Below are positions 9,299-18,317 of a DNA stretch of 62,000 nucleotides, in pieces. The stretch is from NCBI RefSeq assembly GCF_037042905.1, contig NC_087251.1:1736001-1798000 (forward strand), written 5' to 3'. The position numbers and the translations under genes are program-made. Numbering within the stretch: the first letter of the stretch is position 1; each line of letters starts with the position of its first letter. Below the pieces are notes generated by a model. That model made no database searches and was not told the DNA's origin. It was given only the letters and a program-made list of their open reading frames with translations. This DNA is from Lytechinus pictus (taxonomy: Eukaryota).

Positions 9299-10659
9299 TT
9301 AATCCTCTGATAAAATTTTGTATTTCATTTTTTTTTTTTGCTTTGTCTTGCGTTTTTAAACATGTTCTGGGAACTGCTTTTTGAAAGTTGTCAGCATTAA
9401 CAAGTTGTCTTTTTCCGACAGTTACCATAGTAACAGTCAGAGGCCAGTGCTTCTCAGCCAATCAAAAGCAATGATTTCACTGAAATAGTCGGCACTGACA
9501 ATCATGAAATACCCATCAGATGTTAGCAGATAATGTGCAACATAGACTCCTAGATACATATATGCAAACATACATAGTCTAAGTCTTTATTATTAAAATA
9601 AATGTATAGGTATAAGGTCGAGGCAATTTTATCTCTGCGATGTCAATTTCAGAAGTATTCCCAAGACCATGTGAACTTACTATACATGTTGTAATAAAAA
9701 TGATGATGTGCTGTCTATCATTTATAATTGAATCATTGAAATATGGAACTTAGAGAAGTTTCACTATCCCATGTATTTTCTTTATGTGCAGATATAATTT
9801 TACACCACTGAAATTTTGTATTACGGTATTCACTGTACTTATTATTTTTCATTCCATTGGTTTTTTTTTCTAATCTTCAGATACATCGCATCTACCAGCA
9901 AAGATCAAGTGCCACTACAGGAAAGGAAGGTACCTGTTTCACGTTTCCTCTTCAGAGCCAGTGAGGGCCCCAAGATCTCAATAAATAATAATTAAAAAAA
10001 GACTCCTTTATCATTCCTTTAAAAATAGTACATATTATTTATTGAAGGTAAATGCTTAGATGCATTATATTCAAATTTTGTCTCCAAGCTAGCATGTAAA
10101 AATTGGATTGACTACATATTTACTGTGTAAGTTAATGATCTTTGTTGACACATAATACAAGAATTATACACAGCATGTTACAGTTTGTAACATAATTTTC
10201 TTTCATTAAATTCCTAGTTTAAATACCATATAGATGTTTTTTGTGACTTTTGTCATTCTCTGATGTTTTTTGGTACAGATTTCAAGAGACTGAGGGATTG
10301 ATTTACCAGAGCAAGTTTACAGTCCAATCCTGTTATATTGTGCATGTGGAAATTAACAAGGTTTCAATACAATGCTACAAATTTACCTTGATTCATTTCA
10401 TCAGTCCTATGTGCAAGGATAATTATTTCACTTGTCCATGCACATTGTTATAACAGGAGTGGACATTCAATGTAAAGATTATTGAAGATAATTTATAATT
10501 GAAATAACCGCCTGAGAGGGGGGGGGGGTGTGTTGGTACCAATATTATAATGTGTGTGTGCGCAAGGAAAACGAAGGAGTGATTATATGAGAAGAGTAAA
10601 AGATCGGGAATGTACATATCCACATGATTCATTTTTGTTTATGCTATACATTGCAGGGT

Positions 10660-11280
10660 GTTTCTAACTGGTACCACTTGACAATTTATGTTTCCAACTG
10701 GTCCTAACTGGTGCTTCCAACTTGTTCTAACTGGCACCAGTTGACAACTGGTGTTTCCAACTGGTTTTAACTGGCACCAGTTGACAACTCATGTTTCCAA
10801 CTGGTCCTAACTGGCACCAGTTGACAATTGGTGTTTCCAACTGGTTTTAACTGGCACCAGTTGACACCTCATGTTTCCAACTGGTCCTAACTGGCACCAG
10901 TTGACAATTTGTGTTTCCAACTGGTTTTAACTGGCACCAGTTGACAACTCATGTTTCCAACTGGTCCTAACTGGCACCAGTTTACAATTGGTGTTTCCAA
11001 CTGGTTTTAACTGGCACCAGTTGACAACTCATGTTTCCAACTGGTCCTAACTGGTACCAGTTAGGACCAGTTGTCAACTGGTACCAGTTGCTAACTGGTA
11101 CCAGTTAGGACCAGTTGCCAACTGGTATTTCCAACTGGTACCAGTTACAATTTGTCAACTGGATTCCAGTTGAATCCAGTTGATTCCAGTATTCCAATTT
11201 CCATATTGAATCCAGTTCGCTAACTGGAATCAACTGGTACCAGTACCAGTTGGATGAACTGGTCCTTAACTGGTTTTTTG
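10660..11280. repeat. Right subterminal array, ~40-bp units (alternating 80-bp period)
   Basis: Repeated tttccaactggt(cc/tt)taactggcaccagttgacaa. Confidence 0.92.
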
Positions 11281-11432
11281 ACCTGGGTTGATTGTATTTC
11301 CTCTAGTTGTCATTTTTAAATCACTGAAATAAAGGTGTCCCACAATTGGATACACCGCCATACAAAAGTCAGGATGTAGTACATTGCTAAGGAAATATCT
11401 TGGGTTCTCATCTGCAGTGCATACTTGCTTTT

Positions 11433-11625
11433 CGCCATAGTGTTATGTTGTATGCCGCCCACTTGCGGCCTATGTTTTATAGGCATGTTATTATTGTTCA
11501 TTCGGGTCGAGTATTCGCCCCTTCCGGCCGGCAGCTTGCGTTGCGTGAGTATGTTGAATAAATGCTTAAACATTATTCCATTGTGACTGGTTGTCCATCT
11601 TTGTAGTAGTCTCTTAATAATGGCG
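11433..11625 (+). repeat. 5' LTR (CGCCAT...ATGGCG)
   Basis: Identical to 16095-16287; AATAAA at 11557. Confidence 0.92.
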
Positions 11626-11643
11626 TGGTGGCAGCTACGGAAT
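11626..11643 (+). other. Primer binding site, probably tRNA-Leu
   Basis: TGGTGGCAGC is complementary to the ...GCUGCCACCA 3' end of eukaryotic tRNA-Leu; the match degrades after 10 nt. Confidence 0.65.
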
Positions 11644-11787
11644 TTCGTACTCACCATTGATTTCTTTTGCGATGGACTTTATGCGTTTTCTTGCAGCCAG
11701 TCGGTCGACAAATCCGTTGTCGTGATAGGTGGTTTAAACCGTTTATGTTTGCTCGCACTGCCGTAGTCCCACTTATAGCCCATATCG

Positions 11788-14193
11788 ATGGCTTTTCCCT
11801 GTCCCTTTCCGAGGCGGAGGTCACAACCTCGTCTCCAGCAGGCCCAAGATAAAGGGCGTTTTAATCAACAGTTACATTTTGATCATTCTTATATTGATGG
11901 TACTTATTATAATCAAGAGTTAGAGTCAATTCAAATCAATGGAAATGAGAGAAATGAATATGTGACCGAGAGTAATTTGAGTGTCAGTCTTGATGATAAT
12001 GATTGTGATGATGATTTTGATGATGGTAGTTTAATGGGGGCTCCATACCAACCTCATCCCCTGAAGATAAGGGTAGTGCATGCTACCATATCTAGTCGTG
12101 TCAGTTCAAGTAGACCTAGAGCTTGCAGCCCTGATAAATCTGATATAGAGTTTGAGTCAATTCAAATCAATGGAAATGAGATGAATGGATATGTGACCGA
12201 GAGTGATTCAAGTATCGGTTATAATGATGATGATCTGTATGATGATTTTGATGATAATCCAATCGGGGATCCACACCAACCTCATCCCCAGACAATAAGG
12301 GCACTGCACACTACCATAACTAGCCATGTTAGTTCACACAGATCTTCTAGTAGTGCAATTACTTTTGGCTCTAGTAAACCTGATTGTAAATGTGATGATA
12401 GAATTAGCCATAGGTGTTGCCCTTTATGCCTTGCAGCTAGTCGTTCTGATTTCCAACATCATATTAGCGATTGTCCGTTTCTGCCGGAACATGAACAAAG
12501 AATGATTGCATGCGCTCGCCGGGCAATGTCGATACGCTATTGTCCAGACCAATCACGTAGCTCGAGTACTTATGATAGTCTTGATCATGATCTCATGTAT
12601 TCTGAGTTTGACACTGACAGTGACTTATCGGATGATGACATTGTTGAAGATTGTTACGATCTTGGTAGTGCTTTAGGTTCAAGTCCAAACTTGACTGCTA
12701 GGGTTTCTTTGGAACCCCTGCTTGGTACTTTTGGTTGCTTCGAGGACCTACATGAGTTAGGCAGGTCACCACATATTCAGGGAGAAGATTTCTGCAGTGA
12801 TGCGAGTGGCTCATCAGAGTTAGATGATGTTCACAACAGGGTCTGCGATCTTCCGCCACAGTCTCCAGTGGCCAGATTCTCTGAGTTGCCTAGTAAGGCT
12901 ACGTCTCCACACGTTGATGTTTTCCATGGCTCAAAGTGTGTCCGAGTATACCTGGTTAGCGGTTCCTCGGTGAATCTAATCTGTTCCTCACTTGTTAGAA
13001 ATCTTGGAGGTCTTATACTAGACACATATTGTTCTGTTACACAAAAACCGTCCTTTCCTGGTAATATTGTTGGGACCACATCTCTCACTTTTACGAGAGA
13101 AGACCAGGTCTTTCTCTTTGAAGGCTTTGTTGTAGACTCCTCAGATGTAACAATACACGCTGGCATTCCGTTCATTGCACGTCATGATATCACTATCCGT
13201 CCTGCAAGACACTGTATCGTACTCGGTGATGGACCCTCGTATACCTATGGTCCCGAGCGTACCGCACGCGCAGACAGTAAAAACTGTGTTCCACTCGTCT
13301 CCGCTAAGTTAGACAGATCGCCTCCGGTACCGCTCAGCGTCCGCGCAAATGTCTCACCTTGCTCGTTTGACAGTGTAAGATCTGCACCAACTCAATCACC
13401 TGGCGCAGACAGCTTGTCCGTGGACCAGCCCACCCGACATCTTGACCCTGATGCTGCATGTCAGCATAGGCAGATTGAACTGGCTTCAACTCCTAGCCAA
13501 CAAGTATCCAGCATCACTCTTATCGACGTCAAGGTTGATTGCCCTAGGCCTGTTCATCTTGCTAACAAGCAATCTTCAGAAAGTCGCCAGCTAACCCCAG
13601 ACACGTCAACTTATCAGCTTGCTGACAACTCGCTTGGACTCAACTGCAATAGCAGTGCCACTCCTCTCCTGCACAGTAGACCCTCCTCTCTTCCCTATTC
13701 CATCCCGGTTGAGGACCCTCCTGGTCGTCCTCCAGATTCTGTCAGTAGAGCGCTGTCCTGCCCTCTTCACCTATCTGATCCACCTGACGGTCAACCTTTC
13801 TCGGATAGGCCTTGTAGTCGACATCTTCCCAACAGCTTTCCCACTTCTCAGTTTGACAGAGGAGAGAATAACAACGATGATGATGAGGCCACTGTGTACT
13901 CCCTCATTGGTGGTTCCACTGATGTCCCTCGTGCAACAAAGGTCATAGATCCTCCTGGCCCCCTGCCAGGTGCTCCCGATAGACATGATGTATTTGACGT
14001 TGTCTCCCCAAGCGATGCATCTCGTTACCCCTCTGATGTCACTTCCCGTGATCATCCTCTATGGGCCTTCGCGTCTCCAATCTCACACAGAGCACCTAGT
14101 GCAGAGCTTCGTCCCGTCCACTTCACATGTTTATTCGTAGGGCTCCATTCTGGCCGCCCACCGGACATTAACTCTATGCCCCTGAGCTTATGA
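11788..14193 (+). CDS. 801-aa Gag/protease-derived ORF of the LTR element (protease catalytic Asp lost)
   Basis: Uninterrupted ORF; CPLC..H...C knuckle-like motif; retropepsin-like segment VRVYLVSGSSVNLI...IHAGIPF with V in place of the D of DSG; no YxDD, RNase H or integrase motifs. Confidence 0.75.
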   Translation: MAFPCPFPRRRSQPRLQQAQDKGRFNQQLHFDHSYIDGTYYNQELESIQINGNERNEYVTESNLSVSLDDNDCDDDFDDGSLMGAPYQPHPLKIRVVHATISSRVSSSRPRACSPDKSDIEFESIQINGNEMNGYVTESDSSIGYNDDDLYDDFDDNPIGDPHQPHPQTIRALHTTITSHVSSHRSSSSAITFGSSKPDCKCDDRISHRCCPLCLAASRSDFQHHISDCPFLPEHEQRMIACARRAMSIRYCPDQSRSSSTYDSLDHDLMYSEFDTDSDLSDDDIVEDCYDLGSALGSSPNLTARVSLEPLLGTFGCFEDLHELGRSPHIQGEDFCSDASGSSELDDVHNRVCDLPPQSPVARFSELPSKATSPHVDVFHGSKCVRVYLVSGSSVNLICSSLVRNLGGLILDTYCSVTQKPSFPGNIVGTTSLTFTREDQVFLFEGFVVDSSDVTIHAGIPFIARHDITIRPARHCIVLGDGPSYTYGPERTARADSKNCVPLVSAKLDRSPPVPLSVRANVSPCSFDSVRSAPTQSPGADSLSVDQPTRHLDPDAACQHRQIELASTPSQQVSSITLIDVKVDCPRPVHLANKQSSESRQLTPDTSTYQLADNSLGLNCNSSATPLLHSRPSSLPYSIPVEDPPGRPPDSVSRALSCPLHLSDPPDGQPFSDRPCSRHLPNSFPTSQFDRGENNNDDDEATVYSLIGGSTDVPRATKVIDPPGPLPGAPDRHDVFDVVSPSDASRYPSDVTSRDHPLWAFASPISHRAPSAELRPVHFTCLFVGLHSGRPPDINSMPLSL

Positions 14194-16094
14194 GTCCCAC
14201 CTACAGCCTTGGCCCTGAGTGCTTTCCTCCACAACATTGAAAATGTGAACTTTCTATATAGAGACTGAATTTTTGGCTTAACATCTTTATTGTAGACTAT
14301 AGACACCAGATGGACATTTATTGCATTACTTTCCTTTTTCTGCCTTTTGTGAGTTTAATGTTTTATATGTATTCTGTATTTGTGTCCATTTGTGTCATTA
14401 AAGTTTGTTTATTTCTGTCTTTAAAGATTGTTCATGATGTGCGTAAAAGAATTTTGTACTTTTGCCATTTACTTTGATGCTTTTCCTTCTTGTTCGCGCT
14501 TTTATTTAGTGCTGGACTGGTGTGCGCTGTGTGTGGGTGAATTTGATGAATGAGGTGATTGTGTTCCTACATTTGTATTCTTTATTGGAAAGCCAAGAGT
14601 GAGATATTAAGAATAATTTATATTATTTTTGTATGTCTTTTAGTTTGTTTGCATCTGTGTTTGTGGAACATCATTTGTTTTAGATGATTGCATGTACAGT
14701 CCTACATGCTGCAGGTAGCTTTATTGTTTATGTATTTCAGTTGTTTCACTCTTAGCGAGATGAGAGGGTACCCAATGTACTTTAAGTTATATGTTTATGT
14801 TATTTATATGAACAGTTTTATTGTGTCTAATTATGTTCATGATAAGTAATGCTTTATATTACTGGGTGTGTTGGTTCCCCTTTATTTGTCACACCCTCCT
14901 CATACTTTTTTTGCTTATATGTGCACTTATAGTTAACGTTATATAATGAATGTGCGAACAGTTGTTTATCCTTTGTAGTGTATATTATAAACACTATTGA
15001 ATAGTGGGAGGTGGAATAGTGATAAGAAGTTGCTATTTTGACAGTTAAGAAAGGAGATGAATGTTATAAAAGGCGCTGATTTTGTTTGGATTCATGATTT
15101 TGCTATTGTATATGACAACATATATGCATGAAATTTCTTTATTTCGTTATATTGTTGGATATATATATTTTAAGCCAAACTTAGAACCAGTTATTTTGTT
15201 GGGGTACATACATTGAGTGTATTATATTAGGTTATACCAGTTACTTGATTATTTCCCTTTTACTGATATAAGTGTATGTTTGTTAATTCCCTTCATATAT
15301 TACTAGTTGAAGTATCAGTTATGCATGTCAACTGCCTTGCACCGATTTCTAATCAACTACATTTAATATGTGTGGAATATTTGTGAATTTGTTGAATGTG
15401 GCCCATTATGCGTGGATCGGTTGGTGTTTGCTGATTTTATTACACTACTTTATGAACGTGTTTTGGGATCATATTGGATTTTAGGTTATATGCTGTACAT
15501 TGGTAGGGTTGTTGATTGCATAGCTTTTTATAATTTTTTTTTAAAACTTTATCATGCAGTGTATCCATGTGACACTTGTATATGCATTTACATGTATACC
15601 CTTACCATTTTAGGTTTATTTGCGAAATTGTCTTTGGTCATCAAACCAACAAATGGGGCAGGTTGAGAGTGTTATATGGATGTTTCGTTAAGATGTTTTG
15701 AGTTTAGGATTATGTAGCTACTTTTTCTATTTCATTACAGGAAGCATAGTGTATAAAGTTGTATCGTTTAATGTATCAGTTTATGGGCAGAAATCATTAC
15801 CATTTGATTGGTTAACATGATATTCAAATCTATCAATATGTTTTGGGTTTATTGCTGCACTTACCCATGTAAACTTTGGATAGGATTAAGGTATCAGGAA
15901 TAGTTAATTGTTGACTTTAATTTACCAAGTCAATTTACCTTACTATGATTGAAGGTCTGATGCGATAAGTTGGACTATGGTATTTAGCAAGTTTGATCTG
16001 TTTTACACTCCCGACATGTATGTCTTTTAAGTTAGTTTGTTTGTTGCTTATAGATTTCTTTTATTGTGAAAAAAAGAAAGAAGAAAAGTGGTTG

Positions 16095-16287
16095 CGCCAT
16101 AGTGTTATGTTGTATGCCGCCCACTTGCGGCCTATGTTTTATAGGCATGTTATTATTGTTCATTCGGGTCGAGTATTCGCCCCTTCCGGCCGGCAGCTTG
16201 CGTTGCGTGAGTATGTTGAATAAATGCTTAAACATTATTCCATTGTGACTGGTTGTCCATCTTTGTAGTAGTCTCTTAATAATGGCG
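16095..16287 (+). repeat. 3' LTR
   Basis: Identical to the 5' LTR; preceded by a polypurine tract. Confidence 0.92.
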
Positions 16288-17486
16288 TTTAAAACATTGT
16301 GCTTTTTGTGTAAGTAAAAATCTAACGCCATTGTGCATTGCTGCCCTCTGTCGGGCAGGGTTGTATATGTTACACATGCGAATCGATGTCATCGGCCCTT
16401 ATCCGGCCAGCTCTGTGTAGAGGTACAATGTCATTAAAATATAGACCATAAGATTATTGTGATTGACGTCTAATCATTTAATGGTTTAACAGTTAATTTT
16501 AGTTCCTTGCCCTTGGTCATGTTGGATGGGTGACACGAAAGACGGTCTTTGGAAAGACCCTTTCGTACAATTGTCCCCATGAATGATTGAAGGGCATCCA
16601 CTGATCTATATCGATCTGTCACCCATGCCGTCAATACAATAAATAGATCAACTATAGATATGCCACTGTGACATTGCCATAAAAAACAATGTGTTTTCAT
16701 GTCTGCACATCCACTATTAGTATTACCTACACATGATTCAGGCATTTTCAATGAAAGTGCTGTATTTTGAGGCCTTTAAGTTTAATTACCATGTTTACAT
16801 GAGCTGAAAATGAAATTCAATATCATTTCACCACTTTAACTCAGATTTTCTTTCAACGTTAGCCTTCTTCAATGTCTTGCTTGTTGCATGTTCACTTTTT
16901 GCAGACTACATGTCTTTATATCTTTATATTACTGTTTATTATACTGCATCTACTGGAAAAATACTGTTGTTTCTGTAGTCTTCTTCAGTTTCAAAATTGC
17001 AATGATCTGCATATTGGCACTGAAGACTGCCACAGTGCCACCACACCATGTATGAGTTAAGATTGTAGTCTGCAAAAAGTGAACTTGAGATGAAAAATTG
17101 AAACATGAATTTCTTTTTTTTAGAATTCTTCAAACACATTAGTTGATGATCTGTGCTCTTTCATTTCATCAAATTTTAAACCTTGGCGTGTCATTTTAAG
17201 TTTGAAAAAAAAGAATAAACATTGTAGCTACTAGCTACAGTAGCTACCTGTAGTTATTCATCATACATGTATGCCTTGTTCCATGAATGAATTTTCCCCC
17301 TATTTTTCCAAAGAGTAGAATAATGTAAGATTGTGTGATCCATTTCTGAATTTCTACCAAAAGCCTTTAGGGGATAGCAGGCCTTTAACAGTATAGAAAA
17401 TACAAAATGCAAATGATGATAAAAAATACTCACTGCACCATTTTGTTTATTTCTTTCTGTAGGTATAATCGAGGCAAGCCTTCAAC

Positions 17487-18317
17487 ATGGCACCTTTCAC
17501 CAATCCAGTATTGCAGTCATTCCTCAGTGTTGCAGTGCCCTTGGCAGTATTGGTCTTGATCGTTCACTCTGGGTTATTCGACAGTATAAAAGTGGAGAAG
17601 GGTTATGACAATTATGCCGAGCCAGCAGATTCTAAGCTCGGTCCGATACCCTTCCCCAGCTGCATTAAAATGCCAGCAAATGCCTTGGTGAATATTGGAT
17701 ACATGCTTGTTGCTATCTACTGGGGAATCTATATATTTATTTCCAATAACCAACTGACATCAATTCAGAATATGGATGCATATTTGATGTATGTTCTGGT
17801 GTGGATGATGTTTCTTTACGCTCCTGTCCAATTTGCAAGGATCATTACTCAGAAGCAAGAGTGGGCCATTCTGGATCAGTGGGTGACATTACCTATATTT
17901 GCATGGGTGATGGTGACATGCAAGACATTATTGACTGATTGGCAACCCAAATTTGTGGTGCTCACAATCTTGGCATCCCTCATGAGCTACAATCTTGTGT
18001 TTACAATGGAGCAGGGTTTTGATATTGCTCTACTACCCCATATTGTGTATGCTGTCTCTGCCAGTTGGGACCTCTGTTCAAAATACACACCTCCAGGCTA
18101 CAGAAGGGACTTTGGTATGGCTGTATTGATGTGCGCTGGCTTTGTAGTCCTGAAAGTGTGTGACTTTCATCTTGCTCAGTTTTGGATTTTTCAAGAGCTC
18201 ACTGGTCATTTTTGGTCAAAGATCTGTGATGCTCTTCAGGCCTACTTTGCTTTGCAAGTGCTCTTCAAAGTTAGTCTTATCAGGGGGGCAAGAAATCTAG
18301 CTAAAAAGTTGTTTTGA
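17487..18317 (+). CDS. TMEM187: Transmembrane protein 187 (276 aa, single coding exon)
   Basis: Multi-pass hydrophobic ORF with TMEM187-family motifs (GLFDSIKVEKGYDNYAE, MPANALVNIGY, ILDQWVTLPIF, GFVVLKVCD, LTGHFWSKICD). A polypyrimidine-AG acceptor ends at 17462, implying an upstream 5'UTR exon. AATAAA signals at ~18375-18390. Confidence 0.92.
   Translation: MAPFTNPVLQSFLSVAVPLAVLVLIVHSGLFDSIKVEKGYDNYAEPADSKLGPIPFPSCIKMPANALVNIGYMLVAIYWGIYIFISNNQLTSIQNMDAYLMYVLVWMMFLYAPVQFARIITQKQEWAILDQWVTLPIFAWVMVTCKTLLTDWQPKFVVLTILASLMSYNLVFTMEQGFDIALLPHIVYAVSASWDLCSKYTPPGYRRDFGMAVLMCAGFVVLKVCDFHLAQFWIFQELTGHFWSKICDALQAYFALQVLFKVSLIRGARNLAKKLF

What the first reader, a model, noticed from the sequence alone, without database searches (positions are those of the whole stretch)
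11433..16287. Young LTR retroelement with non-canonical CG...CG LTR termini and an atypical target site
Seen: two identical 193-bp direct repeats that begin CGCCAT and end ATGGCG (6-bp inverted termini). A tRNA-Leu-like PBS abuts the 5' copy with no gap, and a purine tract lies 6 nt before the 3' copy. The flanks are ...GCTTTT and TTTAAA..., so only TTT (3 bp) is duplicated. Established: LTR integrases normally act on TG...CA ends and make 4-6-bp TSDs. Inference: identical LTRs indicate a recent insertion, so decay is an unlikely explanation. This may be a Gypsy lineage whose integrase recognises CG-3' ends and makes a short stagger.
Basis: partly seen in the sequence, partly recalled or inferred. 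Interest (0 to 1): 0.75.

Follow-up and report, generated by a model that had tools for sequence, protein, structure and literature searches.

The report
Non-autonomous Troyka retrotransposon in sea urchin
This is a real, likely recent insertion of a jumping gene whose odd CG ends and 3-base target duplication are the published hallmarks of the known Troyka group; it lacks copying and integrating enzymes and so likely borrows them from a full-length relative, which makes it ordinary apart from a kept protein whose protease part is predicted to be inactive.

Summary
Observation confirmed; novelty not. Two identical 193-bp LTRs (11433-11625, 16095-16287) run CGCCAT...ATGGCG, a PBS abuts the 5' LTR and TTT is duplicated. 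One contig from another run holds the unoccupied site with one TTT fewer. These are the defining traits of Troyka LTR retrotransposons (Kojima 2025, PMC12440569: CG..CG ends, 3-bp TSD, CX2CX8-10HX4C knuckle), whose non-autonomous forms are mostly from sea urchins; the neighbouring gene is 98% identical to a Lytechinus protein. The single 801-aa ORF has the Troyka knuckle and a protease-like domain with Val at the catalytic Asp position, but no capsid, RT, RNase H or integrase. Its full-length Gag-Pol relatives have CG directly before the same PBS in 35 of 39 loci. The protein falls in a 7-member clade, 6 of which lack the Asp; this is not in the paper's main text. The scan already reported four such elements elsewhere in this genome. 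Interest is low.

The parts
11430..11432 (+). left target-site duplication, TTT
   Evidence: unoccupied site in one contig
11433..11625 (+). 5' LTR, 193 bp, CGCCAT...ATGGCG, with AATAAA at 11557-11562
11626..11635 (+). primer-binding site TGGTGGCAGC abutting the LTR; likely tRNA-Leu
   Evidence: same motif directly after CG in full-length relatives; tRNA identity from passages of PMC4558846 plus recall, not tested
11788..14193 (+). single ORF, 801 aa from the first ATG; no capsid, RT, RNase H or integrase
11916..12336 (+). internal duplication of about 193 nt (11916-12108 / 12147-12336, 82%) in the acidic N-terminal part of the ORF
12418..12474 (+). Troyka-type zinc knuckle CX2CX9HX4C
   Evidence: pattern in 72 of 20000 shuffles of the ORF; aligns to Gag-Pol knuckles
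12901..13254 (+). retropepsin-like domain with Val at the catalytic Asp position (VSG), predicted inactive
13723..14166 (+). two GRPPD motifs (at 13723 and 14152), shared with the RT-less clade
14194..16067 (+). AT-rich (32% GC) non-coding 3' region with no translated similarity to the 80 loci
16068..16094 (+). polypurine tract (16068-16088) plus 6-nt spacer TGGTTG
   Evidence: the 36 nt before the LTR match locus L024 at 92%
16095..16287 (+). 3' LTR, identical to the 5' LTR
16288..16290 (+). right target-site duplication, TTT

Best explanation
The stretch 11433-16287 is a non-autonomous Troyka LTR retrotransposon of a sea urchin, with identical CG...CG-ended LTRs, a 3-bp target duplication and no RT or integrase gene, and it was likely copied and inserted recently by the enzymes of a full-length Troyka elsewhere in the genome. 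Inferred steps: the RNA runs from the 5' to the 3' LTR and is packaged by a helper Gag-Pol; it is primed by a tRNA (likely Leu) at the abutting PBS and by the purine tract; the helper's DDE integrase joins the CG-3' ends at a 3-nt staggered cut, which on repair duplicates TTT. The element's own 801-aa protein keeps the zinc knuckle and a protease-like domain predicted to be inactive. It belongs to an old RT-less clade and most likely (about 55%) helps the element's RNA enter helper particles rather than being a passive remnant; that role is untested.
For: Ends, PBS, PPT and TSD. Unoccupied site with one TTT fewer: (one contig). Troyka definition: CGCCA in 573 of 603 LTRs, TGGCG in 522 of 603, 3-bp TSD, LTR 100-400 bp, internal part 1553-7691 bp, knuckle CX2CX8-10HX4C, and 62 of 70 non-autonomous elements from sea urchins (PMC12440569). 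Host: the gene at 17487-18314 is 98% identical to Lytechinus variegatus TMEM187. The ORF's knuckle and protease regions hit 347 proteins; 12 of 19 scanned carry RT and/or RNase H. In DNA around such Gag-Pols a PBS was found in 39 of 50 loci with upstream sequence, and 35 of those 39 have CG directly before it (30 TGGCG); 21 of 49 loci with downstream sequence show a purine tract then CGCCA. All 28 loci with an ORF of 1400 aa or more have the knuckle and an integrase HHCC motif. Ten long relatives find only the knuckle and protease regions in the whole window, and a capsid-region profile finds nothing in the element's six frames. The protease-like domain groups with six RT-less proteins (SH-aLRT 99), and 6 of these 7 lack the Asp.
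Against: No helper was found in this genome, because no genome is held. The relatives could not be compared with the Repbase Troyka sequences (supplement unavailable), so they are called Troyka from their ends and knuckle. The only complete relative with both flanks (L017) shows CAA/CAG, not a perfect 3-bp TSD. Two of 39 relatives have CA before the PBS, 11 of 50 had no PBS match, and 26 of 49 had no purine-tract/LTR match under the strict pattern. Several loci are near-copies of each other, so the counts overstate independence. The unoccupied-site contig has 6 extra letters and both flanks are repeats, so it may be a paralogue rather than the allele. One clade member (P0121, L. variegatus) keeps the Asp. 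The tree is the quick search on 121 columns.
Confidence: 0.94

Rival explanations
1. It is Troyka-derived, but the ORF is only a decaying remnant of an internally deleted Gag-Pol and does nothing for the element.
For: Most of the ORF is low-complexity and poorly conserved (mean column identity 23%). The capsid, RT and integrase are gone and the catalytic Asp is replaced. A 1-base deletion at 12729 appears in contigs of two runs. The protein library favours open frames.
Against: Five of the six closest relatives (P0121-P0124, P0126) are open for 627-763 aa at only 29-35% overall identity to this ORF. Conservation concentrates in the knuckle, the protease-like domain and the GRPP motifs, which occur in 5 of the 6 clade relatives but as PGRPP[DE] in 0 of 80 Gag-Pol loci. 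This pattern is hard to keep without selection (inference; no dN/dS was run).
Confidence: 0.35
2. A new Gypsy lineage that evolved CG ends and a short stagger independently.
For: The PBS motif is of a type also seen in Gypsy-related elements (PMC4558846 passage), and Troyka was once filed under Gypsy.
Against: Both terminal pentamers, the TSD length, the knuckle spacing and the host range match Troyka. The protein's full-length relatives share the CG ends and show no GP[FY] after residue 1450 in 28 of 28.
Confidence: 0.02
3. An ordinary TG...CA element whose true ends lie inside the repeat (TG at 11441), or a mis-assembly.
For: TGTTATG at 11441 looks like a usual LTR start.
Against: Identity of the two copies extends to C11433 and G11625. 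No TSD longer than 3 bp exists at ends shifted by up to 3 nt. The PBS abuts CG, and contigs from other runs reproduce the 16094-11433 junction and the ends.
Confidence: 0.01
4. A tyrosine-recombinase (DIRS-like) retroelement that targets TTT.
For: The duplicated triplet is TTT, which recalls DIRS1-type junctions (recalled, not from a call).
Against: It has direct LTRs with PBS and PPT, its relatives carry an HHCC-DDE integrase, and the related solo LTR next door has a TAA duplication, so TTT is not a fixed target.
Confidence: 0.01

Closest known systems
Non-autonomous Troyka LTR retrotransposons of sea urchins (Kojima 2025, J Gen Virol 106:002143, PMC12440569; main text read, supplement not available)
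   Same: CGCCA...TGGCG ends, 3-bp TSD, LTR (193 bp) and internal length (4469 bp) in range, CX2CX8-10HX4C knuckle, no Pol, echinoid host.
   Different: [quoted passage not shown] It does not mention a retained knuckle plus Asp-less protease ORF, and has no occurrence of primer, PBS, tRNA, polypurine or PPT. Whether this family is among the 62 sea-urchin entries could not be checked.
Autonomous Troyka (proposed superfamily; 'Trojicaviridae' suggested)
   Same: Ends, abutting PBS, purine tract with 3- or 6-nt spacer, knuckle and protease homology.
   Different: This element lacks capsid, RT, RNase H and integrase, and the catalytic Asp.
Metaviridae/Gypsy, and LARD/TRIM non-autonomous LTR elements (PMC4558846, passages)
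   Same: tRNA-primed LTR cycle; mobilisation in trans; size above 4 kb as for LARDs.
   Different: These have TG...CA ends and 4-6-bp TSDs; the ta-TRIM PBS lies 4 nt from the LTR; LARDs and TRIMs lack most or all coding sequence.

Membership tests
Troyka | LTR termini 5'-CG..CG-3' (CGCCA / TGGCG) | tested here: met
   definition
Troyka | 3-bp TSD | tested here: met
   TTT; unoccupied site in one contig
Troyka | LTR 100-400 bp, internal part 1553-7691 bp | tested here: met
   193 bp and 4469 bp; ranges
Troyka | Gag knuckle CX2CX8-10HX4C, not CX2CX4HX4C | tested here: met
   CX2CX9HX4C at 12418-12474; no canonical knuckle in six frames
Troyka | aquatic animal host | tested here: met
   neighbouring gene 98% identical to Lytechinus variegatus TMEM187
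Troyka | RT/Pol phylogeny within the Troyka clade | not testable with these tools
   the element has no RT; reference Troyka sequences unavailable
Autonomous Troyka | Gag-Pol with capsid, active protease, RT, RNase H and integrase | tested here: not met
   hence non-autonomous
Troyka (full-length relatives) | no GPF/Y motif in the integrase | tested here: inconclusive
   0 of 28 relatives have GP[FY] after residue 1450, a crude test; two of four proteins checked have such a triplet further upstream; not applicable to the element itself
Metaviridae/Gypsy | TG...CA termini and 4-6-bp TSD | tested here: not met
DIRS (tyrosine recombinase) | inverted or split terminal repeats and a tyrosine recombinase (recalled definition) | tested here: not met
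   direct LTRs; relatives carry an HHCC integrase

The most novel reading that the evidence does not exclude
Sea-urchin non-autonomous Troykas form an old satellite lineage that keeps, under selection, a knuckle plus pseudo-protease protein. It would bind its own RNA and dimerise with the helper's protease to get packaged or to throttle the helper. In addition, the zero-gap PBS and the 3- or 6-nt PPT spacer (24 of 28 distinct contexts) would mean that Troyka integrase processes its two ends unequally, trimming about 3 nt at the PPT end.
Probability: 0.3. Interest if true: 0.5.

Novelty: new member of a known kind. Interest (0 to 1): 0.16.

Why it matters
The headline feature, CG ends with a 3-bp stagger, is published, so this copy mainly adds an example, with an unoccupied site that confirms the TSD. 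What remains open is whether the Asp-less protease protein of this RT-less clade works as a hitch-hiking device, and how Troyka integrase treats CG ends. The paper's main text does not address either question. The first would be a rare case of a non-autonomous retroelement that keeps a purpose-built protein.

Tried and rejected
No whole genome was held, so there was no genome-wide copy census or helper search. Pfam on the ORF gave nothing above noise. The word-indexed protein search on residues 195-500 gave no hit among 2502 candidates, whereas the full HMMER search found 347. A PDB sequence search of the protease-like domain found nothing significant. Single-sequence AlphaFold gave pLDDT 32 and was not used. 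Expression: no RNA holder on record was listed; raw RNA runs X12 and X13 (about 6% of each read) laid 41 and 21 reads, mostly on the repeated left flank, with depth up to 1.3 inside the element, so there is no verdict. Runs X9 and X10 (other species labels) did not show the orthologous empty site. A sequence look-up of the LTR in earlier scan findings found nothing. The pattern scan for solo LTRs is not significant alone (0.65 expected per shuffled window). Literature: 'non-autonomous + LTR retrotransposon + inactive protease' gave 0 papers; 'sea urchin + non-autonomous + LTR retrotransposon + protease' gave 8, of which only the Troyka paper is relevant by title and abstract start; 'Troyka' gave 13 papers, 3 on the element group by title. 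The TG start at 11441 and a DIRS-like origin were rejected (see rivals).
Full report
Observation. The finding is in the sequence as described. Two direct repeats of 193 bp, 11433-11625 and 16095-16287, are identical. They begin CGCCAT and end ATGGCG, a 6-bp inverted pair. TGGTGGCAGC follows the first copy with no gap, and a 21-nt purine tract (16068-16088) and a 6-nt spacer precede the second. The longest flank duplication at these ends is TTT, and no end shifted by up to 3 nt gives a longer one. Zero differences in 193 sites bound LTR divergence at 1.5% (95%), so the insertion is likely young.

Independent check of the ends. A 3-bp match is weak on its own (2-4% by chance), and no genome was held, so public runs were laid on the region. 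One contig of run X4 carries sequence matching the left flank (11407-11427, six extra letters, then 11428-11429) joined directly to 16288 onward (table 7, compared by eye). It has four T where the window has four T, the element and three T. That is a 3-bp duplication, and it fixes the first base at C11433. It is a single contig, and both flanks are repeats, so it may be a paralogous site rather than the allele. Contigs of X2 and X4 stop matching at 16287; one of X10, under another species label, matches 16173-16288 with 4 differences and 1 gap. In X1 one contig has a different flank before 11434 and another joins 16094 to 11433. X3 holds diverged copies, for example 74 differences over 1140 nt. 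The element is therefore not an assembly artefact and belongs to a multi-copy family.

What it is. I recalled Troyka as a group with such ends, and a search found the 2025 paper. I read parts 1-4 of 5 of PMC12440569, which cover the main text and the start of the references; its supplement could not be read. It defines Troyka by 5'-CG..CG-3' termini and 3-bp TSDs, with CGCCA in 573 and TGGCG in 522 of 603 LTRs, LTRs of 100-400 bp and a knuckle CX2CX8-10HX4C. It reports that 62 of 70 non-autonomous elements came from sea urchins. The element meets each of these: CGCCA/TGGCG, TTT, 193 bp, 4469 bp internal, and CX2CX9HX4C at 12418-12474 (pattern in 72 of 20000 ORF shuffles). The gene at 17487-18314 is 98% identical to Lytechinus variegatus TMEM187, so the host is a sea urchin.

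The protein. One ORF of 801 aa (11788-14193) fills the 5' half. It has no Pfam hit above noise. A HMMER search with the 320 aa that hold the knuckle and the next domain found 347 proteins. Of 19 chosen from the 150 listed, 12 carry RT and/or RNase H, and in several the matched region is annotated as aspartyl protease. At the catalytic position 114 of the 150 have D[ST]G, 25 have another triplet and 11 are not aligned there; all 6 of 1000 aa or more have D[ST]G. The element has VSG. Ten long relatives hit the window only at the knuckle and protease regions. A profile of the capsid region from 28 Gag-Pols finds four controls at E of 2e-104 or better and nothing in the element's six frames. The element therefore has no capsid, RT, RNase H or integrase.

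Link to CG-ended autonomous elements. An alignment of 11 long relatives fetched 79 metagenome loci (the best 80 of 202 confirmed stretches were kept) and 1 viral-contig locus. Of 50 loci with a Gag start and upstream sequence, 39 had a PBS match. In 35 of these 39 it follows CG directly (30 TGGCG), in 2 it follows CA, and 2 are other. Of 49 loci with downstream sequence, 21 show a purine tract then CGCCA, 2 show other starts and 26 nothing under the strict pattern. All 28 loci with an ORF of 1400 aa or more have the Troyka knuckle and an integrase HHCC motif; 25 have the RT motif. Several loci are near-copies, so these counts are not independent. The only complete element with both flanks, L017, has CAA/CAG and not a perfect TSD. 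The 36 nt before the element's 3' LTR match L024 at 92%. So the protein family and the cis-ends point to the same group.

Mechanism. Shown: ends, TSD, PBS, purine tract, protein homology and the absence of Pol. Inferred from the standard LTR cycle: the RNA is packaged by a helper Gag-Pol and primed by a tRNA at the abutting PBS. That tRNA is likely Leu, from a passage of PMC4558846 and recall, not tested. The helper's DDE integrase then joins the CG-3' ends at a 3-nt stagger. No helper was identified in this genome.

What is not in the paper's main text. First, the protease-like domain groups with six RT-less proteins, P0121-P0126 (SH-aLRT 99, quick tree of 79 rows and 121 columns; rows were hits up to P0200 or of 900 aa or more that matched at least 95 residues). 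Six of the 7 lack the Asp; P0121 from L. variegatus keeps it. Five of the six relatives are open for 627-763 aa at 29-35% overall identity. GRPP motifs occur in 5 of the 6, and PGRPP[DE] in 0 of 80 Gag-Pol loci. This suggests selection on a non-catalytic protein, though no dN/dS was run and a 1-base deletion at 12729 occurs in contigs of two runs. I had noted the altered motif before the look-up, but the reading 'kept under selection to latch onto the helper' comes from earlier scan notes on four other elements in this genome; I tested only the clade and motif parts. Second, the paper has no occurrence of primer, PBS, tRNA, polypurine or PPT. In 28 distinct contexts the gap between purine tract and CGCCA is 6 nt in 14, 3 nt in 10 and other in 4, while the PBS gap is zero. 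This hints at unequal processing of the two cDNA ends and is inference only. Three searches found no description of the first point (listings only), but the unseen supplement may list this family. I also saw passages of PMC12859917 and PMC10886601, which add nothing on these points.

Verdict. Interest 0.16.

Noticed in passing
window 16326-16486: Solo LTR of a second Troyka-type family only 38 bp after the element: CGCCAT...ATGGTT, flanked by TAA on both sides. It is homologous to the element's LTR (global score 97 against 32.6 +/- 8.4 in 300 shuffles). A 159-nt high-depth contig spans 16326-16485, and a contig of another species label has a purine tract and spacer just before it.
   Followed up: yes
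window 17487-18314 (+): TMEM187-like host gene, 276 aa, 98% identical to Lytechinus variegatus. The element ends 1.2 kb upstream on the same strand; any effect on its expression was not examined.
   Followed up: partly
window 10632-11270: Tandem array of a 40-bp unit (80-bp higher-order) built on AACTGG/CCAGTT words, with inverted arms, just left of the insertion; possibly a foldback-type element.
   Followed up: no
window 11288-11427 and 16525-16578: Short high-copy repeats with sharp ends in reads and contigs; the element sits among other repeats.
   Followed up: no
window 16887-17087: A 24-bp inverted pair 153 nt apart, MITE-like.
   Followed up: no
L024 (whole locus): A 5373-nt stretch repeated at 100% identity at an offset of 6108 nt around a 1711-aa Gag-Pol: a tandem Troyka-type copy or an assembly duplication.
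   Followed up: no
L001-L080: The gap between purine tract and LTR start is 3 or 6 nt in 24 of 28 distinct contexts, and the PBS gap is zero.
   Followed up: partly
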